Assembly: GCF_023055435.1 (NCBI RefSeq)
Contig: NW_025964001.1
Location: 43,400,001 to 43,464,000, forward strand
Source: Haliotis rufescens
Taxonomy: Eukaryota
Direction: 5' to 3'
Length of the DNA: 64,000 nt
Under the pieces are notes generated by a model. It did no database searches and had not been told where the DNA came from. It saw nothing but the letters and a program-made list of their open reading frames with translations. The stretch's first letter is position 1. Every line of letters starts with the position of its first letter. Shown here piece after piece: positions 445 through 59,386 of this stretch. The position numbers were made by a program, and so were the translations under genes.

Positions 445-1769
445 ATCCTGGCGTTGCTATCGTCGGTTTTCTTCCAACACCAATGGCCCGGAGTATTCTG
501 TCCAAGCAACTGCCATCAAATAGACAAGGTATTTTGCTTGGTGGGGGTAGGGTGTGGCTTGTTTTGCTTGTTGTTTAACGCTGCATTAAGAAATATTCTA
601 TCGAAATGAAGGCAGCCTATAAATAATCGTGTCTGGGACCGACAATCCAGTAATTGATACACACGTTATGAGCAGCGAGCATCGCCGTCGGGGTACGATG
701 TCCGAGCCTGGCCACTCGATCCTTTACGAACAGCATAGGTTGACCTTTTCTAACCCGGAATCCCCACGGGGTGACAAGGTATGTATAAGAAAAAACATTA
801 CAGATATCCCAGTGTCTGTTTATTCACTGGATGGTTATGAAACTCGGTACACTTGACAGGGACGATGTTCGCGTCTCTATTTATTCACTGGCCGTGTATG
901 AACTACTGTGTACTTGGCAGGGGCGATATTCGCGAGTCTGGCAGTGGTGCAGGCGTTGTGTTCTGTGGTGGCGGCTGTAGTCTACAACAACATCTACCAG
1001 GTGACTGTCACCTTCTGGCGGGGCGCTGTCTACATGTCCTATGCTGCCACCAATGGCATTACACTGATTGTGTTCATGTGAGTAAATATATACCAACACG
1101 GGGATTATTTGTTTTTCTAATCACAGTAAAGATACGATAGATCATATCTATTTCTTTTAGGCAAGGCCTAAATTCATTGTCTCTGAAGACTTTCGATCCT
1201 GTTCCTATGTATTTGAACTACAAATAAGATTATATTGAATTGAGATGTTTGTGCTCCACCTTCTGCAGAGCCTTATCAGAGAGTTCACATATCCCCAAAT
1301 CGTATATGCATGTGATCTGTTTGGGAGCGTAGATAATAAACTATACATAAAAACAGACGTTTTTGGAGAAGATTAAAACACTTAGTTTGTTGTGGTCTAG
1401 CTGATGGACCCTGGTTCGTCTTGTTTCGTCAAAAGTTAGGAGACTGATTAATCTGCGAGGCCTTATAGTCCATATAATCATAATTATAATTCATGAACTG
1501 TTGTCAACAAAAATATAACCAGTTATTTTTTACTCTAAGAATATCTATCTAATCTGCAGTTGTATGCATGTCTATTCCCAAACATATCACTGAAACTAAG
1601 CGACCCAATTTACAGTAAATTATTGGGGTTTTATTTACATAGATATAGTGCAAAATCGTCTGTGATGTGGTTATGTCCCAATGGTATATAGTTGTAATGT
1701 TTCAGAGTGATGGCGATCCTCATACAAAAACAGAGGAAATCAACAGCGCAACAGATCAATGTAAACTAG
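445..1769 (+). CDS. Gene A: SLC46-family (PCFT-like) MFS transporter, 3' partial; exons 445-528, 921-1077, 1706-1769
   Basis: GT-AG bounded 84-nt exon (PGVAIVGFLPTPMARSILSKQLPSNRQG), 157-nt exon (GAIFASLAVVQALCS...FWRGAVY) and terminal exon (VMAILIQKQRKSTAQQINVN*). Sizes and phases match the other paralogs. The 5' exons lie upstream of the window. Confidence 0.88.
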
Positions 1770-3149
1770 AGCGGTGTGGATATTGGCAAGAACGAATTTC
1801 TCCTAGAAGAAACGATGAACCGCATAGCATTGTAGCTCACGTGCTATGTGGCCAACAGTTGTCAACATTGAAATACAAATATTTTCTTCATATTTATTGA
1901 GGACAAATGTTGGATTACCTGCATCATTACAAGCAACCCAATCACCAACCATTCCTCAGTGCACAACCAGCTCACAACATCGATGTTTATTTTAATGAGA
2001 AATTTAACATGCACTTCCAGTAGAAAATCCTGACTACTTCTTTGCCTGGCATGAAACCATTATTAGAAAGGGTGAACTTGTTAGGAAACAAGCATAGAAG
2101 ACGTTTCGCATCTATGGAGATAGAAGACAGTTTTCTTCAGCAATAGGGCCATCATCCTTAAATAAATAGAGTTAGAAGTGATGTTGAAGTAAAAATATAT
2201 TTAAGGAAGGACAAATTCATTATCACGTTTCTGACACATTAATGTATTTCTTGAGTTTATTCACAAATACCATAAAAATGTTAGAATAATTTCATTCCTT
2301 CTACCGGGTACATACTATTACATTTATCTTGTATTCTGAAATATGAAGAGGAGGTGTATTGCATTACAATATTTACAAACAAATATAATATTGAATCTTT
2401 TAAACGTTTACTGTTTCATTTTCAAATATATACACAAGCTTTCTTTAAATGGTGTCTATTAATCCCTTCAAGACTTTGTGCAAGCTTGAATGAGTGCATA
2501 TGAATTTAGCTATCAATGATTTTCATGTAGAAAGAGTTGTTAAAGATAGATAATTCTCCTTATGCAAAAGTGGCTGATAACATTTCTAGCTGTAAGAATG
2601 CGAGAGACATATGATGGATTTATTGTTAGCCTTAGTTTGTCTAAAACTTTAACATACTGCACAGATTCACCTGAAATGTGCCAAACAATAAAGATGCTGT
2701 TATCCATAAAAACAGTTTCATGTTGTCATATTCTACCAACTTCTAAATGCCGTTCAAAGACTTCATTGCATAAATATAGTTGGAATCACAAAATGTTGGT
2801 GCAGTCACATGTATCCAAAAACCAAATTGACACCAACAGACATCGGAAATAGAATACATCCGGTGTCTCATGACCGGTAAGTTACCCATGTGACGCATGC
2901 TCGCCTGACGAGATAAATATCACTTATGGGTGTCTGTTGGACAATGTTGATAGTAATAAACATATTTCCAAAAGCGTGTTTTATTTGGCCTTTTACGTCC
3001 AATGGATTCTGTTTCGGCGGATAATCGAAAGATCAGGTATTCTCTGGCTTTGATGCTTTTGTATTTACACCCCGTGGGGAATCCGGGTTAGAATAGGATC
3101 GCAACATGCCGTACCGTTCATTTAACACGACTGTGAATCATGTGTATTT

Positions 3150-6995: not shown

Positions 6996-9534
6996 TCATG
7001 ACTTTGGCGTCTGTATCTGCCGAACTTCTTGACGTTGTCTCTGTTCCTTCCTGAATAGCGGAACGAATATGCTGAAAGAAGACATGAAGATTTGAATTAA
7101 TTGGATAAAAAGACTTAGTACAATTAAATATTATAAATACCATTGACACATTCGCTACCACAGCGTTGACAACACATGGCCATCTTATTTCTCTTATCAG
7201 TAAATTCCCACATAATTTCTTTCGCGAAATAGTTTAATTGAATTGGAAGACTATCTTTAGCGTCGTGCCATTTTAATCAGACTCAAATCGCATGGATCCA
7301 GTGTATTTATAATTAAAGATTGGGGTTATTATACACTGAATAATCGAGGATGTCACAATATGACTGCAAACAGTTCAAATATGCAGGACTACATTATGTA
7401 TACATCATAACAATCATCATAATTCACGCCACAAAAGAATATCTATCGATTCCGCAGATACTTTAATAATACATGAGAGTAGCGATAGTTCAAACTGACC
7501 TCTTATCATCTGCATGTGTTTGTGGCAGAGTAGATAATACCAACAGTAGATTGAGCAATGTGTCAATCCTTTGTACCGCCTAACAAGCATGACAAGGTAT
7601 TTTCGGCAAATAGGTGACTTTTGAGGTGCCTGTTTTGATGAAACATATTTAGTTTTAATTCCAAGGTACTATGTTAGTGAGATGAAGCTGCCATGTAGGC
7701 CTTGATATGAAGCCACACTATACTCACAGGTAGAGGACTAAGGCTGCCACATGCATGGCCCCCATGGCGATGAACACAGCACCCCTCCAGTAAGTCACTG
7801 TCTCTTGGTAGATGCTGTTGAAGAGCGGGGTGCCGAACGTACTACACGCAGACTCCACGAGGGCCAGACTAGCAAACAGTGCCCCTAGTAAAGTATAACT
7901 GAAGATCAGTAGATAAAGATGCATCCAGTATTTTTGCATATAATGTTTTATGTTTATGTATAATGTTTATAAATGTGTCAGAGTCGCTATTACCGCTATA
8001 ATTGTGATAACTATAGTGGTCATATTCAAATTATATGTCCTATACTAGTATTGAATCAGTATTTATCTTACAATTTAAAGGTATAATAAAATTCAGCCTC
8101 TTACGAGTGCATGTTCTACATAACATCCTGCATCTCTAACCACACTTAACACCACCCTGACCAAATTGATTATGATCCTTGGTCTGACACCAAATTGTCT
8201 TTGTGCTACTTCATTTTGGACACATAGACACATATTTTGTATATCTACTAGATTCAGACACCCTACTGCTCACCAATTAAACAGCGTGAGCTGGGTATTC
8301 ATGGGCACTGTATCACATGATTTTATTGTATATACACATGTAGTGTAAATAATTTATTTGCCTAGGTGTGATCGGTTGAATCTCACTGTGAAGGCTGCTT
8401 GTATGGAAGTGACAGGAACTGTGTTGTTTTAAGAAAAGGGGCCATATCATAAGCAATTATCCTTTTTCCGATCCAAGCCTTCAGCAGAACTTCAGCGTTC
8501 AGCAGAACACAGCTCTCAACCCACCACTTACTAATAAATAGTGAATGGTTTAACTTAAAGAATAAGGGAATTGGTAACAGTATACTCCATTTGAATGATC
8601 AAAGCATAATGCCTTCAAATGGAGAATTAAACCACCACACTGTCATAAAACATGGCTAATGCTTCAGCAAATATTGAGTTTGTTACGAAAGATAAGGCAA
8701 CATTAAACAATCTCATCCCAGCCTTGTCAGATTGACAGACCTACTTTTAAGAGGCTAGCAGTGTCCCAAAAGAGTGAGTGAGTTGGGTTTTACGCCGCTT
8801 TTAACATTATTCCAGTTATATCACGGCGTGTCAGCTTAATGTGGGAGGAAAGCCCCAAGTGATGCAGGTCTCAGACGTTTACCACTTCGGTGAAACCCAC
8901 GAGCACGGGTATGGTGCTGACAAACCTGGAACATAATCGGGGTGAACCGGGATTCGAACCAACAATCATAGGTTTCTGGCGTGTCCAGGGGACGCAACTC
9001 TGCACAGCGAATCGCGGCGCCTTAGACGACTGGGCCACCCGTGCCCCCTGTCCCAAAAGAAGAAAATATCGGATGACAATGACAGATAAGAAAAGATAGG
9101 AAATATGTTTCTGTGTGTATGCGTGCCATTGCAAATGAAATATAAATATACATGCGAATATGTATCTCTGAGTGTGTATCTGATGGAAATGAATTTATTA
9201 TAAAAATATTCAAGTATATCAGTGTCAGCTGCATATTTTTTATGCCACCCATACAGTCCATTGTTCTACCAATCACCATGCTTCACTGCGCTAGTAGTCT
9301 CACAAAAGGTGCTACACAATGAGGTCAACCCACTAATACGGTCCACAGAAGGGCTGAGTCTATTTACATGCACTGAGTGCGTCCAGTGGTAGGCACTTCG
9401 CTCTGCCACGATTACAGACTTTAAGAGATTCATCAGCCCCCACTCTGTTTTAAGGTAAGATTATGTTAATTATATCTAATTTTTACAGTCAATTGTTCAA
9501 GCCGCTTTATCATACACGTACTTTTGAATATATA

Positions 9535-9565
<31 letters not shown>

Positions 9566-12500
9566 TCCCTCTCTCTCTCTATCACTAGACATTGATTATT
9601 CATCAAATAACACTTTAATTTGTGACTAAAGTTAAGAGAAGAGGGTCAAATGGACAATTTCTGTATGGATATCACGATTAAAAACAGATGGGAATTCGGT
9701 TGGAAATTCAAGATACAGGTCCACTGGTGATGGGACAGTCTCCGATTAATGTTGGTCCTGTACTTTTAAATTATATTAATTAATAACATTTTGTCATGTA
9801 TCTGCTGCGTACCCTGTTTACTTTGAGGCGCCATCTTTGACATGATGCCCCGGATGATAGGAGTAGCGGCAAATCCGACAAGTCCGACAACAGGAACTGC
9901 AGTGAAAGGTTATTATCATTGGCAATTTGGCTGTAAATCACGAATCATGGTAGGCCTAATATAAGATGAAGATGTGAAATGGGGTTTCTCGTCGCATTAA
10001 AGATTATTGCACTTATATAGTGACGTGCATGCACGCGTGTGTGTGGCTACTTGTACCAGTCCGGACTTTACAGTGCTAGCCAACTGAGATAGCATCCCGT
10101 ATTTTAGCATCAATACCCCACTGAGAAACCACTGAGTATACCGGCTCCGAGCCGGCCAGTCCTTGTTTTACTCAGGCAGGGAAACAACAAGTACTATCTT
10201 GTAACGTGTTGTGGTATGACCCCGCCGGGGTTCGAACCCCGGACCTTCCGCTACACCACGGAGGCTGTCAGACCAAGTATAAGCCGTGCTGTATATGGCC
10301 GTTGACTATTCAGTGGAGAATCAATCAATAGCGCCATCATTACCCCGGTCAATGGCGGTCAACTCAACTCTCTGGGAAGGATACAACCCAAGCTGCCACC
10401 AACGCGATAAAAGCATCGGCAAACCCGACCTACTCTCGTAACCGCGTTTTGTCTTACTCAACTTTATAAATTAATCTAAACGAGCCCCTCGTGAAACTTT
10501 GCCTCGTTTGAACCGTCTAATATCGGAATGAAAATCTCACCTCCCGCATACAGCATAAAGTCGTTTGTGGCAAATCCCCACATGAGGTCTCCGCCGATAG
10601 CTGACACCGTGGCCACTAAAGCAACAACTTCATCCGTCATACAATACTGTAGTCCTTTCACCAGAAACACCCCGACCAGGTTCTTCACCAGGTAGGTGAT
10701 GGTGTTGAACAGCCCCATCTTCTCCGGGCTCCAACAGAACGGCAGGTTCATCTCGAACAGCGTGTCCAGATTAGACCCACTCGAGTTGTTGATGATGGAG
10801 AAGAGGAATATCAATAGCCCTAACCAGATGAGACCTTTCTTTAATCTTGTTCCCTGGAAGACATACACGCTCATCATGTTCCTTAAACCCTGAAGGGGGG
10901 TAATGCAGGACCTCTGTTGCCTGGGACATGTCTCCTCCATGAACAGGATCACGACTAGGATACCTAGGACATTGACAAGAGCTGAGGTTAAAGATGGATA
11001 GAAATAGCCTGTGGCCTGTATGAAATAACCTACTGCGAGGGATGTAAGAGCAGCGCTAAGACCAGTGACGGTCTCGATGACGGCCATCCACAGAGATCGG
11101 GACTGGTGTGGGGGTGTATTGTCAGCGGTGTAGGCGCACGATGCAAGTGTGAATGACCACGATCCTCCACATAGACCATACAGACCGGTAGCAAGGAAGA
11201 GGTAGTCGAGGTCTAGGTTCCAGTGTATTATTATTACCGTAACAATTGTCCGTAATACATACCCCGTCATACATATAACATAGAGGAACTTCCTTCCAAA
11301 GAAGTCAGAGTAGGTTCCCAGGATTACATTACACAGGACTGCAATGCCGCTGGACGCTATAGTAAACTCGGAGAGCTTCTCTGATGATTCAATCTGTGCT
11401 CGCTCCTGAAGGAGGTAGCCTGGGTCCGATGTGTTCTGGAAGCATGGAGCCAGCGTGGAGAAGTTCCTTGTTCTCGTGTCATTGCCGAACACCTGCAGGG
11501 AGATTCTGTGGTAGACGTATTGAGACAGGACCGGCGAGAAGAGGCTGGATGCTGATGTCAGGATGCAGACGACAACGTTAGCCAGGACCAGGTTGAATAG
11601 ACAGGATCGTCGCCCTCTTTTCTCGCCACAAATGCTGAAGAATTGGACAAAATTTGATTTATTTATTTGATGACAAATTCTTCAAGGGAAACATTTTAAA
11701 ATCGTTGACATGTGTTTATTTATTTAAGGTTAATATGCTAGAGTTATATTATGTACATCGATCTATCGTTACATCTTAAAGTCTTAGTCGTGCTAGTAGC
11801 CACTGATCGCTGTTTCGAATTCGCGATCGGCCTGATTATTATCCTTCTGTTATCAGCACCATATACCCAAAGTGGCAAATATTACGATCTCACCCCGTGA
11901 TATACCTTGAATACTGCTCAAAGCCGCGTAAAAGCCAAATTGACTCACTCCTTACATTTAACGGTCAAATATTACAGTGTTATTCGGATTAAATGTGTTA
12001 TCCTTTTTTTATTACATTTTATATCATATTGCATAAAGACTTGTTTGTATTGGTCCCCAAACATTTCTTTTATAATAAAGTAAGAGTTGAAAGGTGGCGT
12101 CATATCTGGTCAATATTTACAGTTTAGCGATTATTTTATTTTTGGGATTTTTGACTGACATGATTTTTTAACATTTCTCCGCGAGTTTTACCGTTGGTGA
12201 GATATAGATAGCCTACTCTTCCCCCAGATAATCTGTCTGTCACTCACACAGCGAACGGGTCACAAATCAAGTCGCGGAGAGTCCTTTGATTGGTGACCGA
12301 GTTTCGGCTGCTTGGGTTGTTTATTCCCCAGGGAGCTGAGAATGAATATCTAGTGTACACTGATCCATTGGCCGGGGTAATAATGTCTGAGTGCTTAGAG
12401 CATGCTTATGCATGGACTACAGCGTCATATTAATGGACTGTTATTATTATTAATTTATCTCGGGTGTCGTGCACATCACTTGGGAGAGTTACGTCCCTTA

Positions 12501-12873
12501 TATCTATCAGGGCATTTCTTTCGAATGACCGCTCCGCTCCGATTATAACCTTGATGTTACACATGTCAGAGTGGTAAACGCCGACGACATACACAACATG
12601 AATCGCACCATTCGCATTAAGCTGTTACACCCAGAAGTATCTGAAATCTGTGTTAACGGCGATGTTAAATGAGCGATTGCGTGAGTCCGTAACAAGGAAG
12701 TGACCCAGGGTAATTTGTGTTACATGACATTATGCTGAGTGCCGGGGCAGAGAATGCGTGACCCGTCACCCTAATGTCGGAATACTTGTTACCAACCTTG
12801 GAGGTGAGATCCCGTCTGTGTCGGGCTGGCTCGAGAGAAGCGGTGATTTCTCGTTGTTTGAGTCTGTCGCCAT
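6996..12873 (-). CDS. Gene B: SLC46-family (PCFT/SLC46A3-like) transporter, about 495 aa; exons 12873-12797, 11634-10541, 9896-9813, 7884-7728, 7071-6996
   Basis: The exons splice in frame to 1488 nt. N-terminus MATDSNNEKSPLL; motifs GTYSDFFGRK, AYTAD, PFCWS, PIIRGIMSKM, QGALFASLA. All introns are GT-AG. Confidence 0.9.
8772..9048 (-). mobile_element. SINE family 3, full length; partial copies at about 3745-3872(+), 17313-17555(-), 62288-62447(-)
   Basis: Head ggggcacgggtggcccagtcgtctaaggcg...ggttcgaatcccgg, body gtgggaggaaagcccgaagtgatgcagg, (ACTC)n tail. Confidence 0.82.
9535..9580. repeat. (CT)n microsatellite
   Basis: Read directly from the sequence. Confidence 0.97.
12195..12455 (+). 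mobile_element. Probable SINE 3' part with an L2-like tail ending in (TTA)n
   Basis: gagtgcttagagca...agcgtcatattaat...ttattattatta resembles tails of L2-dependent SINEs; only one copy in the window. Confidence 0.4.
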
Positions 12874-36189: not shown

Positions 36190-36512
36190 GTGAGTCAGTG
36201 TGCTAGGTGTTACAGGCACAGTGGGGTTGCCTAGTGGTAAAAACATTCACTAGTCATGCCAACGGCCGGGCTCGATTCTCTCAATGTGAAGCCCTTTTCT
36301 GTTGTACCCTGTCGTGTAATTGTGGGAGAAGTGCCAAAAAACCAATACTCACTCATTCACTTTTATATTATTTTTTTTACAAAATGATTGTACGTGGACT
36401 TTGCCATAAATGTCAATGATTTTGCAGCTGTTGCTTGCAATACTATTCCCGGGTCTCAACAGATAAATCTAAACGTATAGTGAAGTAGTATAGTAGATGG
36501 TATTAAGTAGCT

Positions 36513-42614: not shown

Positions 42615-45600
42615 ATGTTAAACATGAGCAGTATGGGAAAGGCTGGTAGCTCCAAAGCAAACGTTATTGATGAAGATTATAATGATGCCAAGAGTGTGCC
42701 CTTGCTAAGGGCTATGGTGACTTGCGGGATAGTATCGGTGATTTATATGTCTGGTGTCATATCCTTCTCGCCATTTCTCAGCCAGTTCATCCGGCAGCGT
42801 ATTGCTGAGTCCTACACTTACAACACAAACGAAAGTTTCAGCACTGGAAACATTTGCGACCGAAATAAAAGCAACCATGATAATCTGATTGGAATCAAGA
42901 TCCAACAACAGTCGTCGGATATCCTGCTGTACTTATCACTCTCTGGATCCATTGCTTCCATCTTCATCAACCTAGTCATTGGATCCTACTCCGACTTCCT
43001 TGGCCGGAAATTCCTATTCTTCATACCCACCCTAGGGGCTGTCCTGAAAGGAACAATGTTGTGTCTTGTAATAGCGTTTCGATTTCCCCTTGGCTGGTTA
43101 TATTTGGGCTATGTTTTGGAAGGTCTCACTGGGTCGTTCAGCGGATATCTCCTGGCTGTGTTTGCATACACGGCAGATGTGACTGAGCCTGGAAAGAAAC
43201 GCACTGTCATGATAGCTCTGGTGGAGGGTAGCTTTGCTGTGGCAGGGTCTATTGGTCAATTGGCCGTTGGATTCATCATACATAATGTCAACTACCTGTA
43301 CGCTGCGATAATGATTACTGCCATCTTTGGTCTGGGACTGATCTTGGTAATAACACTCCTGCCTGAAACTATGACCAATAAGGTGGAGAAACGGTGGTCT
43401 CCACTGCCACACATCAAGAAGGTTTTTGGATTCTTCTTCACACGAGGCTCAGGTAAACAGCGAGCCATGTATATACTAGCACTCCTTATATTCTTTTTTG
43501 GAACGTTCCAAATGCTTGGACGGTCAAATGTAGAAACTTTGTATCAACTAGACAAACCATTTTGTTGGAGCTCTCTGAAAATCGGCTACTATGGTGCAAT
43601 CAAACTGTCCTTCAGTGTTGTATGTGGCCTAGTTGGACTCAAGCTTTTACAGCCTTGCTTCCGAGACATGACAATTGCATTAATAGGACTGGCCTTCGGC
43701 GCAGCATCCTTCGTGGTGGAGGGACTTGCCGTCAGTGATTGGATGCTGTATTTAGGTATGTTTTGTGAGGAGTGTGACCATCTTCATTACATTAAAACCG
43801 CCATACTGAACATAAATTCATGTTAAATCTTAATAGTGATATAACAATAGGTGTTTACGATTAGATTCTCTCCGTAGTTATATATTTATTTTGTGCCCTA
43901 AAATTTCGTTTATAAATGTGAACACATAGGTCACAATGACCTGTTCTAGGGATGACTATATTGCGGAAGAACTTTTACTCATTGTACTTTTGAGGTTGAA
44001 CTGCTTTGCAATTGCGTATATTGACTTGTACCGTATGTTCCTATGTTTGTTCAGGTGAATACTTGACTTGCTTTTGCATGTGTTTGTGACTGGACCCACC
44101 AGTGGGGCAGGATAAACTCGCCTTTTCGCGAAGACCTAGTGTCATCACTTATTGCTAGCGATTCATAATCACATGCTTCTGACATTGTCGGAATCGTATT
44201 AGATTTCTTATGATTATGGAAATGGTTTTCTTGGCTTTTATGTACATATAAAAGAATGCATAAGCATGTGTATATATTCATATTTAAAACCTAGTCTGAG
44301 TTCACTACTTGCAGTCCGTTATTGGTGTCAACCTCCGTGATATTGCTGGCATAAAGCTAAAAGAAGTCCAGAGCCACTCACACAAGCTTCCAAATAGAGT
44401 TGGAGTCCTCTTGATCACCAGACACAAATAATCTGAATGTGGGTACGGGGGATAACAAGCCTTTCTACAGGACATTCCCGAGAGCGTGGACAGTTGAATC
44501 AACTTCAATTACTGAATTATCTGGACAAACCCGAATATTTGCAATCTGGTGTAATATGCAATGAAGATTTATGACGTGAAAATACATTCAGTTGACTTCA
44601 CTTCGCGTCCAGGTTGGACCTTGACACATTATGCTGACTTGAGAAAAGAAATTCATACCCGTTTCTACTCTCGGTTTCTCTGGATTCCAGGTTCAAGTGT
44701 TTATTGTATCCAAAGCGATATGACCCAAATTTCATGAAAATAAATAATACTCTTGTTTGTTTTCACAAAAATCATCATTATTCACATTTATTAGAATGAG
44801 TGACAACCTATGACAAAAGACGTCAAATCCAAAATAACCAATATTTTCGTTGCAGTCCCACTGATCTCCATCTTATCATTTACCGTTGTCCCTGTTGCAC
44901 GATCAGTTATGTCAAAGATGACGTCCCCGATGGAACAAGGTAAAACAACAAGACAGACATCTTTCCGAACATTCCATTTTATTTGAATTTGCATTAACAA
45001 CAATCGTCTCATTGTAGCCAAATGTTTAATTAGGGACTCGCATGTGTGGGTAATGAAATCCCCACAGTCCCCATTTTTTTCTAACAAGCAATTAAGACCG
45101 ATAAATAATCAACGTAATGTATTTCATAAACAAAGATTCGTTCTCAAATTGCGTTTTAATGCGGACGGGTATACTGTCTAGCAAGTGATAGGAGAAGCCG
45201 ACATACGATCACGTGATTTACCTATCCTGATAGATACAACCTTGTATTTGAACGATATCCAAATGAGATAACATATTAATAAATGTATGCATTACTCCAG
45301 GAATGATAATATAACAATATCACCACACAAATAGTGTACTGCCTGCGTGGACAAGATGATGGACTGAGATCTTTGCCATGTTGTTGCAGGCGCTCTGTTC
45401 TCCAGCATTGCTGTCATGGAGAGTATCTGTAGCACGCTGTCGGCAACGATGTACAACACCGTCTATCACGCTACTGTTGACTCTTTGAGAGGAGCGGTTT
45501 TCATCGTAATGGTCGGAATCGCAATTATCTGTGCTGCTTGTATTATGTAAGAACTATGGCTGATTAACGTTCATGAAATGATTGTTATGAAGAATCATAT

Positions 45601-46272
45601 ATAACCCCTTTCATCAATACAGCTGATCAGTAATTATCAATATTGTTTGGTTTACTGGTATTGTCCTGTAAATTCATTGTATATCACCTAAAAGTATTTC
45701 ATTGAAAGGTTATTCACAAAGCATTAACTATGGTTTTAACGATTTACTGTATCGGTACATTGCTATGTTATGTGACAAACTAATTTTACTAAATGTGGAC
45801 AAATGTCAAGAAGCAGTTTGATGCATTCAGTTTGCTGAATCTGTTTTTGTTGGGCCTGTTGTTTTTTTCATCCGAGAAAAGGAAATGGTTCCCAAATAAG
45901 TATCTATATCGTGATGTCATGATACTCCGTGTGTCCCTACTGTAGGTTTAGCAAGCATTATTCTCAATGTTCAATGTTGCTCCACGTCTATGGTTTATGA
46001 AAACATATTTTATAAACGTCACCATACGAAAATTAAAATAATAATATTTAACCTTCATCAGTAATTAGCCAAGGATCGTGGTTACAAATGCAGTTGTGCC
46101 TTTGTATACTTTCATGTGGACAGCGTTCTTAACCGGGTAATTTGGCACTTTCTGTCACGTCTTTGTTTATGTTGACAGTGCATTCCTCTTCATCTCGAGA
46201 GAAGACACACAAGTATCGGAGTCTGGTGTTGTGCCTCCAACCAAAGTCCAACTGAAGTCACTAAACAAGTAG
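42615..46272 (+). CDS. Gene E: SLC46-family transporter, about 491 aa; exons 42615-43755, 44856-44939, 45390-45546, 46179-46272
   Basis: In-frame splice of 1476 nt; close paralog of D and F. Confidence 0.92.
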
Positions 46273-48172: not shown

Positions 48173-49235
48173 AGACTGTCTGTAACTATGATACGTGGAG
48201 AACAAGATCAAACATTTGAGTACTAAATGAATGGATATGAATTAATAAATACATATTGATTAAGTCTGCATTCTTCATCTATTTGCAGCAGAATTAATTT
48301 TAAGTAGTTACACGTAACTTCAAGTAGTAAGTTACGTTGACCACAGGAACGTGCCTTGATCCTGCCCAATTAGAGATTTCAAATCAGAATACATGTAACG
48401 TGTGATCTACTTTAATAATTTAGTTACACATACATATATATTTGCATTGCTTTTATGATTTTCTTCCTTAAAAGAGCTTCAGGTGGCCCAGTAATCTAAG
48501 GAGCAATTCCCTGTGCTGATTAGTGCCCCCTGTTATACTGGGCTCGAAATATGATTTTGCCCTGATTTTGATTCTTTGTAATTCAGCACCATTCCGTGCC
48601 CGTGAGTTTCACCATAGAGATCAGCGTTTACTACCTGTATCACTTCATATTAAACATCAAACTGAGATAAACACACCCCTGCGTCCGTGCTTGCAGTCTG
48701 CCGGAACAACACAGCACACGCCGTACTGTTGAAAACGCAAGCCGTCAACTTGATGTGACGTCACATAAAAGCAAATACACGAAGACAGGCGTTGGATGGT
48801 TATTCAACACCACTACTACCACCTGTTTTCTTTAAAAAAAATATTATATATATATGTGCACACGTTGTACATATATCCTGCTTGATAATAATGACGTTAA
48901 ATATACCTCGAATCACTCTTTAATAAAACGGTTTCATATTATCAATGGTGTCATGGGCCCATAGTACATGTCTGGTAATGGGTGTATAAGATCATAAAGT
49001 AACATATTTGGAACGTCTTAGGTTCTTCCACACTATCAAACATCCATACTAGCTTGTCATTAAATGTCATCAAATTGTGTGGAAAATGTTTGAAAGCAAC
49101 AACATGTAAATATGACCCTGATGTGAATATGCACGTATGCAATATGATGTATCAATCGAGTGTGTCCCATATCTATCAATGGTAGGCATCATATGATAAC
49201 GTGGATTCGTAATAACCTATATACACAAGGCCTGG

Positions 49236-49625
49236 ATGGAGGACGACAACATTCACCACGGACGTGAGACAGAACCAACCCATCATCAAAGATGGCCGCG
49301 TCCAGAAGACGACCAGTTCGGCCGTCTGTTACGATCTCCAGATGTAGATCCAGAGAGACGCGACCAACCTCAACATGCACCTAAGACCTGTATTACAGTC
49401 ATTACAGCCATGAAAGAGGTGTTCTGTTTGTATTTTAGGAAAACGTCCACTGGTAACCGTGTCCTATTCTGGATCTGCATAAGTGTATTCTTGTTTAAGA
49501 AGATAGACATGCATGGTACAGTAAATACAGTATATGTTGAGTCCTCCATTGCTGAGATTCTGTCAGACTGGGCATCTGTGGTGCCCTGAAACTACGATGT
49601 CTACTACAGCTGTCTCGTCTTCCAC
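49236..49625 (+). pseudogene. psi-G2: more deleted copy of gene G exon 1
   Basis: MEDDNIHHGRETEP start, then ...FRKTSTGNRVLFWICISVFLFKKIDMHGTVN, with frameshifts and large deletions. Confidence 0.85.
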
Positions 49626-50032
49626 TTCGTGATAAACGTGATGGACCTGCTACAATTCTGACTTCTTTCCAACACCATCGTACAGCTACAATAATTTTCG
49701 AAGCGGCGTTAAACCCATTTACTCACACTTTCCAAATGTAGCACATTTGTGTATCCGGCACCGAAGATACCTATCTCACTTGGAGTAGATGTAACCCAAT
49801 AAATTACTCGTATCTTTGAGATAGCATCATTTGTCATGCAGTGTACCACATTCATATCATGGTAAGTATCTAAACACACAAATGACATTACTAAACTACT
49901 ATCATCCCATCTCATGATCTTCAACATGGTGTTCCATTTTTGAACGTATCTCTAACACCGTTGCACTCACATGATAACCGGTGTTGTTGTAGACTAAGCT
50001 AACATAAGCTAACTGATGCATCACCATAGTGC

Positions 50033-53000
50033 ATGTTAAACATGAGCAGTATGGGAGCTGGTAGCACCAAAGCTAACGATATTTATGAAGATGATAATGA
50101 TGCCAAGAGTGTGCCCTTGCTAAGGGCTATGGTGACTTGCGGGATAGTATCGGTGGTTTATATGGCTGGTGTCATATCCTTCTCGCCACTTCTCGCCCAG
50201 TTCGTAAGGAAGCGGATTTCTGAGTCCTACACTAACAACACAAACGAAAGTTTCAGCACTGGAAACATTTGCAGCAGAAATAAAAGCAACCATGATAATC
50301 TGATTGGAATCAAGATCCAACAACAGTCGTCGGATATCCTGCTGTACTTATCACTCTCTGGATCCATTGTTTCCATCTTCATCAACCTAGTCATTGGATC
50401 CTACTCCGACTTTCTTGGCCGGAAATTCCTATTCTTCATACCCACCCTAGGGGCTGTCCTGAAAGGAACAATGTTGTGTCTTGTAATAGCGTTTCGATTT
50501 CCCCTTGGCTGGTTATATTTGGGCTATGTTTTGGAAGGTCTCACTGGGTCGGTCAGCGGATATCTCCTGGCTGTGTTTGCATACACGGCAGATGTGACTG
50601 AGCCTGGAAAGAAACGCACTGTCATGATAGCTCTGGTGGAGGGTTGCTTTGCTGTGGCAGGGTCTATTGGTCAATTGGCCGTTGGATTCATCATACATAG
50701 TGTCAACTACCTGTACGCTGCTATAATGATTACTGCCATCTCTGGTCTGGGACTGATCTTGGTAATAACACTCCTGCCTGAAACAATGACCAATAAGATG
50801 GAGAAACGGTGGTCTCCGCTGCCACACATCAAGAAGGTTTTTGGATTCTTCTTCACACGAGGCTCAGGTAAACAGCGAGCCATGTATATACTAGCACTCC
50901 TTATATTCTTTTTTGGAACGTTCCAAATGCTTGGACGGCCAAATGTAGAAACTTTGTATCAACTAGACAAACCATTTTGTTGGAACTCTCTGAAAATCGG
51001 CTACTATGGTGCTATCAGACTGTCCTTCAGTGTTGTATGTAGCCTAGTTGGACTCAAGCTTTTACAATCTTGCTTCCGAGACATGACAATTGCGTTGATA
51101 GGAATGGCTTTCGGTGCAGCATCCTTCGTGGTGGAGGGACTGGCCGTCAACGATTGGATGCTGTATTTAGGTAGGTTTTGTGAGGTTTCAGACATCTTCC
51201 TTAGATTAATACCACCATACTGAACATGAAATCATTATAATTTCATAATTTCAAGTTAACACTGTTTCTTTACTGCTGATTGGCTGAATGGATAGTCACG
51301 AGATCTGACATTTGGAGTTCACAAACCTGTGAACGGACAGAAAAGTTCATACGATGTGAACAGTTTTTGTGTGAAATTGATCGTGTGAACTTTTATTGGA
51401 ACTACTTTCCGGGGTTTCCCCGAATTCTCGATCGGTGTTTACAATAAACTCGTTTTTCTATTTTCATTTTAAGCCCAGCGTTTATCAGCAATATAATTAA
51501 TTTAGTATTTTGCCTGCACTTGTAATATTGCATCTGACTTGAAATAAATAATAGCTTTGGTTCTGGTGTTTAATGTAGCTGCTAGATGAAACAAAATGGA
51601 TTGTCCTTACGGTGATTTGGATATGGAATGGCTATCTATCAATACTAATAACGCAAGTTAAGAAAATGAAATCTGTAAAATTACTGAGGTGAACGAAATC
51701 GATTTATTGAGCGATATTTCCTTTGATGCCTTGTTTTCGGAAATGACAGGAATCTAGCACCAAGACAATTGCGAATGAAAACAATGTCGTACCCTGCTCA
51801 GATACGGCCGCCGACACAGATCAAAGCGTCTGCTCCTGATCAATCCCAAACTAAGACCCGATTCACTACCGTATCGGGAAACAAATCCAAGATTTTGAGA
51901 AACCCTAAAACACAAACAGGTAAAGAAAGAAACTTAAATATAAAAAATAAAAAAAAATAAACCGTGCCTACCTGTTTTACCGACTGGTCACTGGAGACGA
52001 GAAAATATCTGAAGACGGAATTACTATTCCGGTTTCTGAGTTGGCCGACCTTCTCCGTGCATTCTTGGCCGAGAAGCGGCGGCACTCGAGAAATGACGGG
52101 GCACAGAAATGAATCTGGCATCAGGTCATACAGTAGGTCCATCTCAGGTGACAAGAAACACCAGCTGAGCAACGTATTACAGCACACACGACAAATCCCA
52201 AACTCCAAATATAACACGCCCTGACGTTGAAGATTAACACAAAACATACAAGTTTCAGAGCACTTCATTCAATCCCCATCAGTCCATTCCACATCGTCCG
52301 AATTGGTTTGCGATTATCCAAACACAAGCAACACATTCATAAATCAGTGATATTCCCAATTTGCTAGTTCCATGGGAGGGTTCATGCGTCGGGGTGTTTT
52401 CCATAACTGTTCCATAAACTTCTTTCTCAACAGCAGTAAGTATCCATTTCGACTCGAAATGCACCCTTTTACAAACTTATGTGACGTCATATATAAATCC
52501 ACACTTGATGGTTGACCTCGCCTCGGTGCATTGAGGTCATGTTTAGATTTTTGTTCGGTTTCCTGTTACGGTAACCTTATTTTAACTTGATTAATCCCAA
52601 ATATTGTTTGTCAGTTTGTTCAGAGAATAAAATTATGTTGATGTTGACATATTTTCACATTGTTGCAATGTTCTTCGGCGAAACCAGTGGACGTCAAATT
52701 TCAGCAAACTTTGTTACAATATTATTCAGCGAGACAAGTAAACTACACAGTATGAAATTATAAGGATTGAAAGTCAGTGTGGATGGGTTTATTGAAGTGT
52801 GAACCCCGCAAGCTCGGATGTTCACACAGTTTAACCAGCGCTTTTAAATGGTTCACACTTCAATGAATCCATCCAAACTGACGTCAATTATTAATTAAAC
52901 CGGGCGGTCGGGTAGCCGAGTGGTTAAAGCGTTCGTTCGTCACGCCGAAGACCCGGGTTCGATTCCCGACATGGGTACAATGTGTGAAGCCCATTTCCGG

Positions 53001-55705
53001 TGTCCCCCGCCGTGATATTGCTGGAATATTGCTAAAAGCGGCGTAAAACTATACTCACTAACTAATTAACTAAACCCTAATAGTGGTATAACTATAGGTG
53101 TTAGATTATCTACGTAGTTATATATTTATTTTGTGCCCTAAAATTTCGTTTATAAATGTAAACACATAGGTCACAATGACCTGTTTTAGGGATGACAATA
53201 TTGCGGAAGATCTTTTACTCATTTTACTTTTGAGGTTGAACTAAGAATGAACTACTTTGGAATGCCTTATATTGACTTACACCGTATGTCCCTATGATTG
53301 TTCAGATGAATACTTGACTTGCGTTTGCATGTGTTTGTGACTAGACCCATAATTGGGACAGGACAAACTTGCTTTCTTGCGAACACCTGGTATCATCACT
53401 AATGAATAGCGATTCATAAACATATGCTTCTGACATTGCCGTCATCGTACAACATCGACTCTGCTGTAAGCATAGATTTCTTATGATTATGGAAATGGTT
53501 TTCGTTGCTTTTATGTATATGTGTATAAGAATTCATAATAATATTTATATTCATATCTAAAACTCAGATTGAATCCCCCATATGTGTACACCGCTTGCAG
53601 TCCATTCTTGGTGTCATCCTCCGTGACATGGCTGACAAACTCAGACTCACTCACACAAGCTTCCAAATAGTGTTGACATTTAAATCTTCCCGTGGGGTTC
53701 TCTAGCTCACCAGAAACAAGTGGACTGACTTTGCTTACGGGTGCAGGACATCCCTGAGAGCGTGGACAGTTAAATCCAGTATCAGTTGCGGCATTGTCTC
53801 GATGGAACTCGAAGATTTACAATCTGGTGTAATATGCAATGAAGATTTATGACGTGAAAATACATTCAGTTGACTTCACTTCGCGGCCACGTTGGTCCTT
53901 GCACACATTATACTTACTTCAGAAAAGAAATCGATACCCGTTTCTACTCTAGTTTTCAAGATTCAAGGTTCAAGATGTTTATTGTATTCAAGGCGATATC
54001 AATCACAAGACATGAAAATAAATAAATAAATACTCACTCATTATTCACATATATTGGAAATATTGACAACTAATGACAAAAGACATAAATCTTTGCCTGA
54101 TATGTCGTATCCAATACAACCAATATTCAAAGTAGGCACAATTTATGGAAACAACTTCTATATTTTTATTACTAACATTCACTTTGCAGTTCCACTGATC
54201 TCCCTCTTATCATTGACCGTTGTCCCTGTTGCTCGATCAGTCATGTCGAAGATGACGTCCCCGCTGGAACAAGGTAAACAACTAGAGAGACCTATTTCCG
54301 AACATTGCCATTTTCGTTGAATTCAAATATTAACAACGACTGTGTTAAGTTGGCCAAATGTGTAATTGGTGACACGCATGTGTGGTTAATAAAATCCCCA
54401 CAGGCGCTATCTATACTAACAAGCTATCACCGTAATTTATTTCATAAACAGGGCTAGTTTGGTGCTCAAAGGGTGATGTTCCCGAAATAACACTATTGCG
54501 TTTTAATACGGCCGAGTGTACCATCTAGCAAAGTCCTTGTAATTAGCTAACTTTATGGACACAACCTTGTATTTGAACGATANNNNNNNNNNNNNNNNNN
54601 NNNNNNNNNNNNNNNNNNNNNNNNNNNNNNNNNNNNNNNNNNNNNNNNNNNNNNNNNNNNNNNNNNNNNNNNNNNNNNNNNNNNNNNNNNNNNNNNNNNN
54701 NNNNNNNNNNNNNNNNNNACACACTACATACATGGGGAAAAATATCATATTTATACTGGTGTATGTAGTGTTAACATTACACCAAGGATGATAATATAAC
54801 CACATAACCTATTAAATAGTTTACTGCCTGCATGGACAAGATGGCGCACTTAGTTATTTGCCATGTTGTTGCAGGTGCTCTGTTCTCAAGTATTGCCGCC
54901 ATGGAGAGTATCTGTAGCACGCTGTCGGCAACGATGTACCACACCGTCTATCACGCTACTGTTGACTCTTTGAGAGGAGCGGTTTTCATCGTAATGGCCG
55001 GAATCGCAATTATCTGTACTGCTTTTACTATGTAAGAACTATGGCTGATTAACGTTCATGAAATGATTGTTATGAAGAATCATATATAACCCCTTTCATC
55101 AATACAGCTGATCAGTAATTATCAATATTGTTTTTGTTGATAATCTATTGTCCTGTAAATTCACTGTATTGTACCTAAAAGGCTTGTATTAAAAGGTTAT
55201 TCACACAGTATAAACTATTGCTTAAACGATTTATTGTATCGGTATATTGTGATATTAAGCTAACTTTAACTAAATCGATGTGGACACATGTCAAGAAGCA
55301 GTTAGTTGCAATCAGTTTGCTTAATCTGTTTTTGTTGGGCCGGTTGTTTTTTAGTATCTGTATCTTGTAGTGAACTTGATATCACGATACTCCGTGTGTC
55401 CCTACTGTAAGTGTCGCAAGCATTATTCACAAATCTCCACGTCTCTGGTTTTTTGAAAACATATTTTAGAAACGTTATCATACGAAAATTAAAATTAAAA
55501 TATTTAACCGTCATCAGTAATTAGCCAAGGATGGTGGTTACAAAGGCACTAGTGCCTTTGTATGCTTTTATGTGAACATCGTCCTTAGCGAAATCTAACC
55601 GGGTAATTTGGCACTTTCTGTCACGTGTTTGTTTATGTTTGCAGTGTTTGCAGTGCTACATTTTATCACGCGAGTGTGTCCCACATCGGGCCTAGTCATA
55701 AGTAG
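50033..55705 (+). CDS. Gene F: SLC46-family transporter; exons 50033-51170, 54190-54273, 54875-55031; normal last exon missing, predicted replacement exon 55645 (or 55654)-55705
   Basis: The first three exons are intact and in frame. After the conserved last-intron acceptor the sequence no longer matches D/E exon 4 and reads (VCS)ATFYHASVSHIGPSHK*. The 3' end is uncertain. Confidence 0.8.
51235..52892 (+). mobile_element. Non-autonomous insertion with 13-bp IR and terminal hairpin (X2), gene F intron 1
   Basis: ttataatttcata at 51235-51247 and tatgaaattataa at 52751-52763; hairpin arms 52766-52805 and 52850-52888; absent from E intron 1. Confidence 0.72.
52902..53062 (+). mobile_element. SINE family 1 copy
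   Basis: Near-identical to 20660-20831. Confidence 0.88.
54583..54718. other. Assembly gap (N) in gene F intron 2
   Basis: Run of n. Confidence 1.
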
Positions 55706-55812: not shown

Positions 55813-58800
55813 ATGGAGGACGACAACATTCACTGCGGACGTGAGACAGAACCTCTCATAAAAGATGGCGGCGACCACAACATTGTCCCTGGCAGCCAGC
55901 AGAAAATGCAAATCAGACGTCTGTTCCTCGTTAGTCTCATACTGTTCCTCCATGGCGGTTCCGGTGCCATCCACAGTCCGCTCATGTCCCAGTACTTATA
56001 CCTGCGATATAGCGAGGAGTATTTTCCTAACTCGACGTTTCCGGAAAGGAAGACCTCCCACAGTGAATGTGTTGCCAACAGCACTGCCATGGAGTCCAAC
56101 CTCCAGAAGGAGGTCCAGAGAGAAGCTACCAACCTCAATATGCAGCTGACTCTTGCCACAAGCATCCCTGCAATCTTTACCAACCTGTTTCTGGGAGCCT
56201 ATTCGGACTATTTCGGCCGACGCTTCTTGTTCATGACAATGATGGTGGGCAGGCTGACTAGGGATCTCACGACAGTTGCCATCATCGTCTGGAATCTTGA
56301 CCTTCACTATTTCTTCATCGGGTACGGCGCTGACGGACTGTGTGGGTCATCCTTTACCTTCTACCTAGCGGGGTATGCGTACACAGCAGACATCACCCCG
56401 CCAGCTAAAGTGAGAACGGTGGCACTGGCTGTAGTGGATGCTGCCAGGGGTATAGCTGATATATCCCTGCATATAGCCACGGGTTACTTGATAAAGATGT
56501 ACGGCTACCTGTATCCTTCTGTGGGAATGGCTGCCATGACACTTCTGGACTTCCTTGTGGTGGTGACCCTGCTTCCGGAAACGGTCAAAAGAAGCGGGAC
56601 CTGTATTTCACCCATCACGGCCATTAAAAATGTGTTCGGTTTTTATTTTAGGAAAACGTCCACTGGTAACCGTGACCTATTCTGGATCTGTATTATTGTG
56701 TTCTTGTTTAATATGATAGACAAGCATGGTACAGTAAATATCGAGAACTTGTATATGTTGAGTCCTCCATTTTGCTGGGATTCTGTCAGATTGGGACTCT
56801 ACGGTGCCCTGAAGGACGGTGTCTACTACTTCAGCAGTGTCGTCATCATCAAGGCCCTCCACGTCTGCACCACAGATGGTGTAGTTGGTATCATCGGCTT
56901 CATGTCTGCGGCTGCTTCTAAACTTATAGAAGGCCTTGCTTTTGTGGACTGGATGTTGTATTTAGGTGAGTCATTGTGCTAGGTGGTACAGGAACGGTGG
57001 GCTAGCCTAGTGGTTGAAGCATTCATTCATAACACCGAAGGCCGGGTTCGATTCTCCAAATGTGAAGCCCTTATCTGTTGTACCCTGTCGTGGTATTGTT
57101 GGAATAGTGCCAAAAAATCAATACTCACTCACTCATTAAGTCATTCACTTAAATTCATTGTTGTTTTTTGCATTATAAAAGGACCTCGTCATGATTTTAG
57201 AGCTGTGGCTTGCAAATCTGTGCCTGGGCTTAAGAGATAAATCTAAACATATTGTAAATTCAGGTCACGAGATGAGATAAACATGTTATTTGACAAAAAA
57301 CACCCTCTATATATTTTTATTGTCTTACCACCATCCCCCGACAACCAACCCCATCCCACTAGTAGTGCCTAACATGGGGAACATGGTAAATGAGTTAAAG
57401 AAAAGAAAAACCCATCTGTAATGCAAAAAGCATGCAACCCACTAATAGCCAGATAACATGTATCCGTTATTTTGCCCTTTCTGTCGGATCAGTTCCGGTT
57501 GTGGGGGTAGCATCATCAGCCATCTCCCCAGCCCTCAGGGCTATCCTGTCTCGGATGGTTCCAGCCGAGGAGCAGGGTATGTATGTTCGTTAAGATCTGA
57601 TAAAATTCAATTAAAAAATGTTTGCCAAATTTTCAAACGAAGAACTGAATTCCATGTATATCTAGCAAGCTTAGAAACTGGTTCAGTGTTGGTCATTAGA
57701 AATATGGCATTTCGAGTTAATAGAAAATATGTGTGATACCTTGTTATAGGTGCAATATTCACCAGTATGTCTGTGGTGGAGGCTGTCTGTGATGCAGTAG
57801 GGTCCACCGCACTCAATGTCGTGTATGAAGCAACGTTGAGCGTCATGCGTGGTGCAGCGTTTCTCATCATGGCGGCCTCCAAGATCGTGGCGATTGTTTT
57901 GTTGACGTAAGTAAGGCGTGTGTTTTGGCCTTCCGTTTATATATTTACATTTCATCTCAAGCGCCGGGCAAAAGAAAGTATACACTCTTGTTTGATGGTG
58001 GCTGAAAATGAAACTAACAAGAAATGGTTAGTCGATAATTGATACGGGTATCATAGTTGCGTTGTGTACCTTAAGTTTGCAGAATTTCGTTTTCATATTA
58101 GCGTTTGGAGCTTTTTGCTCAACTCCCATGTTCAAGTGTTTATTTACGTTTGCCCGGTAGTTAACAATTTAAAAGAAGCCGGTGCTCGACAGACTGGAGA
58201 CTATTTAAAAATCTAGGTCTGGAAATATAGATATGAGTGGCGTCCATATCCTTTCAATGTCGGTACAAAAGTCTGCCATACAGACAATGAAACAAATATA
58301 TCCAATACAAGCCATGCAAGTCTATGATGCTTGGCAAGTCTAGATTACTGCAGTTCCGGAGAAAATGAAGAAAGTCTCTTTGCTCCTTTTAATTATATTT
58401 TGTCGACAATTTAACAAATGTTTTTTTTCTGTAAAAATATGGTCATTTCAATTACTATCTAGTCTGTCGGTACATGTGCTGATTTATCAAGCAAGTGATT
58501 AGCAACTTGGTGTTGTAAAATCACCCGTGTGAAGCTGAGACATTGTCCGTGTGTAATTAGAAAACTCATTGACTGCTTGATTGATATTCATCATCGAAGT
58601 TTGCTCGGCACACAAAAATAGTGGTGTCAACAGTGTTTGACACTGACCAAAATTTGTCAGTGGTCTAAAGGACCAGAATATCGAAAACTCTCTACAGACA
58701 CAATGGTGCTGAGCAAAACAGGCTTTAAATCGCAGATACCTTACCATTTTCATGCAACAAGTGAGCGGGCGTAGTTAGAATGAGAAACCAGTCAAGAAGG

Positions 58801-59386
58801 AAACCACTGTACCACACAGAGTTGTTTAGATTGCTGGTTTTACTTGAGTTTAGAGTCGATCTATCGCCGATTTCAAAAGTCATACAAACTTAATATAATT
58901 AAGATTACTTACATAGTCTCTTAAAAAACACTTGACCACCGAACCAGCATTTATATAATTGTCCTGGTCGTTTGGGAAATATACTAGACTCGGACCAGCG
59001 GGCCAGTGTCGAACACTGTGTCAAACGACATAAATCAAATGAGGGGTAACATATTCGCGCCTGGTCCCCTTTTATACATTATAAAACTGTTTGGTAAAGA
59101 AAGTGGATTCAATTCAATCCAAAAATAGTACAAGTCCAGGTGATTAAATCAAATTAGATTTGCATTTGCATAGCGAACTTTCCAATTAACAACCGCTCAA
59201 ATGCGCTCAGACCATGACTGATCTATAGTCTTGAAGAGAATGTTTATTCCTTTTGATATGGTTTTATTCACATTCATTTTCAGTGTGTTTGTGTTCAAGA
59301 CTCGGTCGAGAGTGGTGCCCCCCAAGGACAACCTGTGTGTACAAGGGCGGGATGACCAGGGTATCTCTGACGAGGAGCAGCAGTAG
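55813..59386 (+). CDS. Gene G: divergent SLC46-family transporter, about 498 aa; exons 55813-56965, 57493-57576, 57750-57906, 59284-59386
   Basis: In-frame splice of 1497 nt. Motifs ETEPLI, GAYSDYFGRR, AYTADIT, PPFCWDS, PALRAILSRM, EQGAIFTS; C-terminus DQGISDEEQQ*. Confidence 0.92.
56995..57150 (+). mobile_element. Old SINE family 1 copy at the start of G intron 1; co-duplicated copy at about 36220-36360 after psi-G1
   Basis: Degenerate A and B boxes, tgtgaagccc body and actcactc tail, at the same position after the exon-1 donor in both G and psi-G1. Confidence 0.65.

What the first reader, a model, noticed from the sequence alone, without database searches (positions are those of the whole stretch)
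445..59386. Dense, actively evolving tandem array of at least 7 SLC46 transporter genes plus 2 pseudo-exons
Seen: seven paralogs with the same 3' exon architecture in about 59 kb, ranging from very close (D/E/F) to deeply diverged (B, G). Known: vertebrates have only SLC46A1 (proton-coupled folate transporter), A2 and A3; A2 and A3 move muropeptides or cGAMP to cytosolic sensors, and A3 is lysosomal. Inference: this may be a lineage-specific repertoire of endolysosomal and gut transporters for diet- or microbe-derived small molecules, evolving birth-and-death like an immune or detoxification family.
Basis: partly seen in the sequence, partly recalled or inferred. Interest (0 to 1): 0.7.

Follow-up and report, generated by a model that had tools for sequence, protein, structure and literature searches.

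The report
Large abalone SLC46 transporter gene array
These seven abalone genes are the middle of a real array of about 29 related transporter genes (about 50 genome-wide) that lack the folate-gripping residues of the vertebrate folate carrier and likely move varied small molecules out of lysosomes; such expansions are already reported in molluscs, so this is a large but ordinary example.

Summary
Confirmed and larger than reported. The window (Haliotis rufescens, by exact protein matches) holds seven SLC46 genes and two broken relics of gene G. They lie within an array of 29 first-exon loci over 510 kb; at least 50 loci exist genome-wide. D/E/F are not haplotype artefacts: their introns differ 16-21%, and a second Haliotis species has a 96-97% ortholog of each. 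Birth and death are visible: a [DEF+G] unit was triplicated, two G copies decayed, exon 1 shows gene conversion, and F lost its last exon (bridged by contigs of two studies). The array is old: it holds several gastropod-wide lineages (single clade rejected) plus abalone radiations. All copies lack PCFT's Arg156-Asp164 pair; most keep the Glu193-Arg384 gate, and half carry an N-terminal dileucine lysosomal motif. Best reading: proton-coupled endolysosomal exporters of varied organic solutes, substrates unknown. Against an immune-like repertoire: dN/dS 0.21-0.73 and no clear enrichment of paralog divergence at pocket sites. SLC46 expansion is in print for another gastropod, and this scan noted two mussel arrays before.

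The parts
445..1769 (+). Gene A, 3' exons: 445-528, 921-1077, predicted last exon 1706-1769. Its large exon with ATG lies 1343-227 bases upstream of the window (L017).
6996..12873 (-). Gene B: coding exon 12873-12797 (start, with EKSPLL dileucine motif), 11634-10541, 9896-9813, 7884-7728, predicted last exon 7071-6996
   Evidence: contigs of runs X16 and X17 cover exactly 10541-11634 and continue off both ends
18039..22219 (+). Gene C (RefSeq XP_048258931.1, 498 aa): 18039-19152, 19846-19929, 20457-20613, 22078-22219; 3' UTR to about 23537
   Evidence: pieces in 4 of 4 RNA-type runs; AlphaFold model pLDDT 82.5, best fold match PCFT 7bc6
18681..19145 (+). Gene-conversion tract shared by C and D/E/F (C codons about 215-369), with a less homogenised island at TM7 (codons 282-300, window 18882-18938)
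   Evidence: third-position identity C vs E 122/145 inside vs 133/313 outside, 0 of 5000 permutations reach it; island scan P 0.0002-0.002 for nucleotides, 0.06-0.09 for residues
26229..34412 (+). Gene D: 26229-27369, 29853-29936, 33593-33749, 34319-34412; open frame, all splice sites GT-AG. RefSeq's 404-aa model stops after exon 2.
   Evidence: ortholog P0014 96%; contigs of run X16 cover 26192-27335 with 13 differences
35482..36484 (+). psiG1: frameshifted, internally deleted relic of G's large exon plus start of its intron
42615..46272 (+). Gene E (RefSeq XP_048259711.1, 491 aa): 42615-43755, 44856-44939, 45390-45546, 46179-46272
   Evidence: ortholog P0015 97%
49170..49666 (+). psiG2: shorter relic of G's large exon, same 448-bp deletion as psiG1
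50033..55031 (+). Gene F: 50033-51170, 54190-54273, 54875-55031; normal last exon missing
   Evidence: ortholog P0017 97% and with a full tail
55645..55672 (+). Junction of a ~1.1-kb deletion that removed F's last exon and most of the F-G spacer; the acceptor survives and would give a 20-residue replacement tail
   Evidence: contigs 55596-56673 and 55597-56673 without gaps in DNA runs X2 and X9, two studies
55813..59386 (+). Gene G (RefSeq XP_048258932.1, 498 aa): 55813-56965, 57493-57576, 57750-57906, 59284-59386
   Evidence: spliced contig in run X15 joins the large, 157-nt and last exons with about 84 unlisted letters between the first two

Best explanation
This is the middle of an old, still-changing tandem array of SLC46-family transporter genes in an abalone, whose proteins likely work as proton-coupled carriers that export varied non-folate organic solutes from endosomes and lysosomes. 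Shown: gene structures, copy number, orthology across Haliotis, duplication of a [DEF+G] unit with decay of two G copies, gene conversion, loss of F's last exon, purifying selection, transcription and splicing of B, C and G. Predicted from a model and alignment: 12-helix MFS fold like PCFT. Inferred: (1) the Glu/Asp193-Arg384 cytoplasmic gate, kept in all seven window genes, couples transport to acid pH; (2) loss of Arg156, Asp164 and His289 means folate is not the main cargo; (3) the N-terminal [DE]xxxL[LI] motif sends A, B, C and G to late endosomes or lysosomes, while D/E/F, which lack the acidic residue, may sit elsewhere; (4) different charges in the cavity give the old paralogs different cargo, plausibly products of intracellular digestion of food, as vertebrate SLC46A3 carries steroid conjugates and bile acids.
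For: Only PDB sequence hit and best fold hit is chicken PCFT (E 4e-19, next 2e-9). Column table (47 own rows): Asp117/Gly120/Arg121 in 46 of 46 rows with that region; acidic residue at 193 in 37 of 47; Arg384 in 33 of 38; Arg156 in 0 of 47; Asp164 in 0 of 47; His289 in 1 of 47. Roles of these residues: passages of PMC7612623 and PMC8978580. Dileucine motif 22 of 44 vs shuffle mean 2.0, max 8. SLC46A3 and a C. elegans homolog are lysosomal (passages of PMC9896951, PMC13216265). dN/dS 0.21-0.73 in 29 of 29 pairs. Orthologs of 12 array or related genes in other Haliotis. Spliced contigs.
Against: No transport, localisation or tissue data. Residue equivalences come from a 26%-identity alignment to chicken PCFT and may slip in TM7-8. 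No vertebrate SLC46A2/A3 sequence was in my alignments, so likeness to A3's pocket was not tested. Pocket positions are not clearly more divergent between paralogs than other membrane positions (1 of 4 measures at P 0.048, the others 0.17-0.32), so 'different cargo per paralog' is weakly supported. One review passage says a functional role for human Asp156 in transport has not been shown. Half of the N-termini lack the motif, and human SLC46A3 uses a C-terminal tyrosine motif that C, E and G tails do not show.
Confidence: 0.62

Rival explanations
1. Innate-immune repertoire: the copies deliver muropeptides or cyclic dinucleotides to cytosolic sensors, and diversify under pathogen pressure.
For: Drosophila CG8046 and mammalian SLC46A2/A3 support muropeptide sensing, and a cited title names SLC46A2 as cGAMP importer (passages of PMC11509177). 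Endolysosomal motifs fit. TM7 differs between C and D/E/F and between species in the DEF lineage (10/17 identical H. rufescens vs H. rubra, against 17/17 for C).
Against: No pair with dN/dS above 1. Deep paralogs are kept as 74-87% orthologs across Haliotis, slower turnover than the label implies. No expression data from haemocytes or challenge. No sequence signature for muropeptide transport was available to test.
Confidence: 0.15
2. Largely redundant copies: a recombination-prone array gains and loses genes by drift or for dosage, with broad overlapping substrates.
For: Three relics, frameshifted copies, F's exon loss, conversion tracts, raised dN/dS (0.4-0.7) in young pairs; non-significant pocket test.
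Against: Old paralogs at about 30% identity are intact and conserved between species; cavity charges differ by clade (Glu vs Tyr vs Thr at the Arg156 column); the TM7 island resists homogenisation.
Confidence: 0.15
3. Dietary vitamin or metal uptake: apical gut folate, haem or copper carriers amplified for an algal diet.
For: Family membership with PCFT; SLC46A3 and worm SLCR-46.1 are tied to copper handling (passages); G has a His/Asp-rich cavity; D/E/F lack the lysosomal motif.
Against: PCFT's folate-contact residues Arg156, Asp164, His289 are absent from all seven genes, Tyr323 from six.
Confidence: 0.07
4. D/E/F are uncollapsed haplotypes (assembly artefact).
For: Large exons differ by only 4-6%.
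Against: Introns differ 16-21%. Each gene pairs with its own ortholog of a second species at 98-99 support. E- and F-specific intron contigs occur in the same DNA runs at depths like G's (12-16 vs 13-18). No long read spanning the three was available.
Confidence: 0.01

Closest known systems
SLC46A1 / PCFT (chicken structures 7bc6, 7bc7)
   Same: MFS fold (TM-score 0.74/0.84), TM2-3 DxxGR motif, loop cysteine pair, Glu193-Arg384 gate, an intron at the same codon and phase as human c.1166
   Different: 26% identity; Arg156-Asp164 bridge, His289 and mostly Tyr323 absent; N-terminal dileucine motif; tens of copies instead of one
[quoted passage not shown]
   Same: RefSeq names the abalone proteins 'SLC46A3-like'; lysosomal targeting is predicted for many copies
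   Different: Orthology to A3 not tested; A3 uses a C-terminal YxxPhi motif, the abalone copies an N-terminal dileucine motif; substrates unknown
SLC46A2 and Drosophila CG8046 (muropeptide, cGAMP delivery; PMC11509177)
   Same: same family, acidic-compartment location
   Different: no evidence here for immune role or for orthology
Molluscan SLC46 expansions (Alviniconcha, bioRxiv 10.1101/2025.05.21.655246; mussel arrays in scan notes e1-9598417, e1-9545308)
   Same: expanded, diverged SLC46 families in molluscs; the notes also report loss of folate residues and lysosomal motifs
   Different: the preprint only lists SLC46 among expanded families and links it to symbiosis; this array is larger (29 loci) than the six-gene mussel clusters noted, and is in a grazing snail

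Membership tests
SLC46 (MFS) | 12-helix MFS fold closest to PCFT | tested here: met
   gene C model; Pfam MFS_1 above cut-off in 6 of 6 large exons in the window
SLC46 (MFS) | sequence closest to PCFT among solved proteins | tested here: met
   single hit 7bc6, E 1.4e-43
SLC46 (MFS) | TM2-3 Asp-x-x-Gly-Arg motif and loop disulfide cysteines | tested here: met
   all seven window genes
SLC46 (MFS) | 3' intron positions shared with vertebrate SLC46A1 | tested here: inconclusive
   abalone intron in codon 400, phase 1, maps to human codon 389 = c.1166 (alignment; boundary read from a reference title). The matching c.1082 boundary and the 84- and 157-nt human exon lengths are recalled, not from a call.
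SLC46 (MFS) | proton-coupled transport | not testable with these tools
   acidic residue at 193 and Arg384 kept in 7 of 7 window genes, function untested
PCFT-type folate transporter (SLC46A1) | Arg156-Asp164 salt bridge; Arg156 binds folate carboxylate | tested here: not met
   0 of 47 own rows have either residue
PCFT-type folate transporter (SLC46A1) | His289, Phe290, Tyr323 at the outer gate and pocket | tested here: not met
   window genes: His 0 of 7, Phe 0 of 7, Tyr 1 of 7
SLC46A3 ortholog | groups with vertebrate SLC46A3 in a tree | not tested
   no vertebrate sequence was returned to my alignments
SLC46A3 ortholog | C-terminal YxxPhi lysosomal motif | tested here: not met
   absent in tails of C, E, G, 3 of 3 scanned; N-terminal dileucine instead in A, B, C, G
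Birth-and-death multigene family | duplicates of mixed age, pseudogenes, orthologs across species, purifying selection | tested here: met
   modified by local gene conversion
Immune-type diversified repertoire | positive selection or excess divergence at ligand-contact sites | tested here: inconclusive
   whole-gene dN/dS below 1; pocket test 1 of 4 measures borderline; TM7 island suggestive; no site-model test was run

The most novel reading that the evidence does not exclude
The array is a selected panel of ligand-specific lysosomal export gates, tuned to algal or microbial metabolites met by a grazer that digests inside cells. Gene conversion homogenises the scaffold of C and D/E/F while selection protects and diversifies the TM7 outer gate, so these near-identical proteins are a natural mutagenesis series for SLC46 substrate choice.
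Probability: 0.25. Interest if true: 0.6.

Novelty: new member of a known kind. Interest (0 to 1): 0.3.

Why it matters
Vertebrates have three SLC46 genes with very different cargo, and what sets specificity is known only for PCFT. About 45 apparently intact abalone copies, including near-identical ones that differ mainly in TM1, TM7, TM10 and TM11, give ready material to map specificity and to ask what a grazing mollusc exports from its lysosomes. As genomics it is an ordinary tandem expansion, already annotated gene by gene in RefSeq. Five literature searches listed no paper describing the abalone array; subscription journals are not covered.

Tried and rejected
Haplotype artefact: rejected. 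One abalone-specific radiation: rejected. Pocket-specific divergence across 23 paralog lineages and 12 ortholog pairs: not supported. E as a simple F/D crossover hybrid: upstream E resembles D (6% vs 18%), the start of intron 3 resembles F, and informative sites are mixed elsewhere, so no single breakpoint. Direction of the C/DEF conversion: not resolved from H. rubra proteins. F-G read-through transcript after the deletion: no contig showed or excluded it; no F-specific RNA piece was listed, which is no evidence of silence. No listed run is on record as RNA; the runs used are guessed RNA, accepted only where pieces stop at exon borders. Two word-based protein searches returned only 10-11 hits each and no vertebrate. 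Scan look-ups by place and by sequence gave no SLC46 note for this genome. Papers sought for the human exon-3 boundaries and for the Drosophila study were not held or did not give them. No complex prediction was run: no binding claim is made.

Full report
Identity. Gene C matches RefSeq XP_048258931.1 of Haliotis rufescens exactly. The window is bases 43,400,001-43,464,000 of a 67.9-Mb contig in a 1.33-Gb genome. The large exons score above the Pfam MFS_1 cut-off (6 of 6 in the window). The only solved relative by sequence is chicken PCFT, which is also the best fold match of an AlphaFold model of C (pLDDT 82.5).

What is in the window. Seven genes, A to G, share a large exon, an 84-nt exon, a 157-nt exon and a short last exon. 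A's large exon lies just outside. B has an extra 77-nt first coding exon. Two relics of G's large exon follow D and E; they are 84% identical to G, frameshifted, and share a 448-bp deletion. So the duplicated unit was [DEF-type gene + G-type gene]. Shared introns of D, E and F differ by 16-21% and the relics differ from G by 17-18%, while the large exons differ by only 4-6%. The triplication is therefore older than the exons suggest, and the exons have been homogenised.

The array is larger. In 554 kb fetched around the window a profile finds 29 large-exon loci, 25 of them within 283 kb; one is frameshifted, and a third relic lies at 43.319 Mb. A second cluster of 8 lies at 5.47-5.56 Mb of the same contig. 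Five single-protein searches of the genome converge on the same set: 29 + 8 + 7 (57.6-59.7 Mb) + 6 on four other contigs = 50 loci, plus 3 relics. About 45 look intact in the parts examined. This is a lower bound, since genes of many small exons can be missed. The two exceptions are the frameshifted copy and one copy that lacks its own 3' exons.

Not an artefact. A second Haliotis species (name cut in the output) has one ortholog each of D, E and F at 96-97%, higher than any paralog pair (88-92%), with support 98-99. H. rubra and H. asinina each gave one DEF-type cluster. E-specific and F-specific intron contigs occur together in DNA runs of two studies, at depths like G's.

Recent change. F's last exon is gone: its acceptor is followed within 27 bases by sequence that in the D unit lies 1150 bases further on. 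Contigs from two studies bridge this junction without gaps, and the sister species' F model keeps the exon. RefSeq ends F at the intron. The deletion also removed most of the DNA upstream of G, yet G pieces appear in a guessed-RNA run of the same organism label. The second half of the large exon is converted between C and D/E/F (third positions 122/145 vs 133/313; no permutation of 5000 reached it). Inside the tract, nucleotide differences cluster at TM7 (scan P 0.0002-0.002), residue differences less clearly (P 0.06-0.09); I chose this test after seeing the pattern.

Age. With 12 named non-abalone molluscs, a tree of 20 of the abalone genes rejects one clade for 17 of them (p-AU 8.9e-7, quick tree). 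C/DEF group with Gigantopelta, Batillaria and Aplysia proteins; A/B and the upstream genes group near Patella, Lottia, Elysia and Littorina; G stands apart. Within the A/B group a 31-row clade (support 99, FastTree) holds only abalone-like sequences among the top 150 representatives; closer relatives such as top shells were not identified, so it may be wider than Haliotis. In H. rubra, orthologs of both clusters are listed on a contig of the same length, 1.21 Mb, which suggests one ancestral array split by rearrangement in this lineage.

Mechanism. Passages of PMC7612623 and PMC8978580 give PCFT two salt bridges, Arg156-Asp164 and Glu193-Arg384, with His289, Phe290 and Tyr323 at gate and pocket. 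Mapped through the alignment, none of 47 abalone rows has Arg156 or Asp164, whereas 37 of 47 keep an acid at 193 and 33 of 38 keep Arg384. All seven window genes keep that gate, and six carry a new acidic residue three positions after the lost arginine. An N-terminal [DE]xxxL[LI] motif is in 22 of 44 tails (3 rows without a start codon were dropped) against 2.0 in shuffles; that it sorts to lysosomes is established knowledge, mentioned in PMC9896951. A, B, C and G have it; D, E and F do not. I infer proton-coupled export of non-folate solutes from acidic compartments, like SLC46A3. Cargo and tissue are unknown.

Selection. dN/dS (Nei-Gojobori) is 0.21-0.73 in 29 of 29 within-group pairs. At 24 literature-defined pocket positions versus 282 other membrane positions, ortholog change was 0.154 vs 0.168 (P 0.32), paralog difference 0.743 vs 0.700 (P 0.17), paralog BLOSUM 0.89 vs 1.40 (P 0.048), ratio P 0.18. 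This does not show an immune-style repertoire, nor exclude site-level selection.

Expression. Contigs from guessed-RNA runs stop at exon borders or join exons for B (X16, X17, X18), C (X16-X19) and G (X15); a D-like piece appears in X16. They carry no tissue label and cannot rank genes.

What is known. A bioRxiv preprint on Alviniconcha snails lists SLC46 among expanded families (two passages seen). Two unchecked notes of this scan describe six-gene mussel arrays with the same traits. Muropeptide and cGAMP roles are from passages of PMC11509177; lysosomal location and copper from passages of PMC13216265; passages of PMC13603547, PMC5815676 and PMC3542225 added nothing decisive. Other papers were seen only as search listings. 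Supplements were not read; gene-family tables in mollusc genome papers may already list this expansion.

Verdict. A real and unusually large SLC46 array, new member of a known kind. Interest 0.3.

Noticed in passing
L059:6145-7641 (contig 5,562,144-5,563,659, minus) with L058: A large exon without its own 3' exons lies upstream of a near-identical complete gene, separated by transposon pieces. It could be a truncated duplicate or an alternative front half spliced to the neighbour's back end, the layout that note e1-9598417 reports in a mussel.
   Followed up: partly
L062:911-2395 and L065:172-1680: Two intronless SLC46 copies on other contigs, with open frames and orthologs at 80% and 97%: likely retained retrogenes from two different array lineages. 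A third intronless gene lies at L067:6213-7733.
   Followed up: partly
L050-L059 versus L001-L009: The 5.5-Mb cluster contains close relatives of the genes at the left end of the main array, 38 Mb away; in H. rubra both kinds are listed on one 1.21-Mb contig. Suggests a chromosomal rearrangement breaking the array.
   Followed up: partly
L054-L059: Five copies with a 130-residue acidic N-terminal extension that have lost the acid at position 193 and mostly Arg384; possibly uncoupled carriers or sensors.
   Followed up: no
L069-L075: A separate seven-copy SLC46 subfamily at 57.6-59.7 Mb with one extra intron in the large exon; one copy frameshifted.
   Followed up: partly
L021 vs L020 (contig 43.489-43.498 Mb): Two neighbours share an identical stretch of about 60 residues over TM4-6 in otherwise diverged proteins: another probable conversion tract.
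   Followed up: no
window 28619-29592 and 30784-32300: Gene D's introns hold a Tc1-type transposase relic (PF01498) and a degenerate element with a match to a DIRS-like ORF elsewhere in the region (label recalled from motifs); these may explain RefSeq's truncated D model.
   Followed up: partly
window 33718-33720 region, gene D exon 3: D has an aspartate in TM12 where E and F have Val or Ala, shared with the sister-species ortholog, and an extra Glu in TM11.
   Followed up: no
L017:1850-6807: A non-LTR retrotransposon with open ORF1 (486 aa) and endonuclease-RT ORF2 (1167 aa) just upstream of gene A.
   Followed up: partly
window 21388-21819 and 36723-37158: Minisatellites of 79-bp and 170-bp period; several high-copy short repeats (for example 20659-20830, 52902-53072, 59998-60166) are scattered through the introns.
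   Followed up: no
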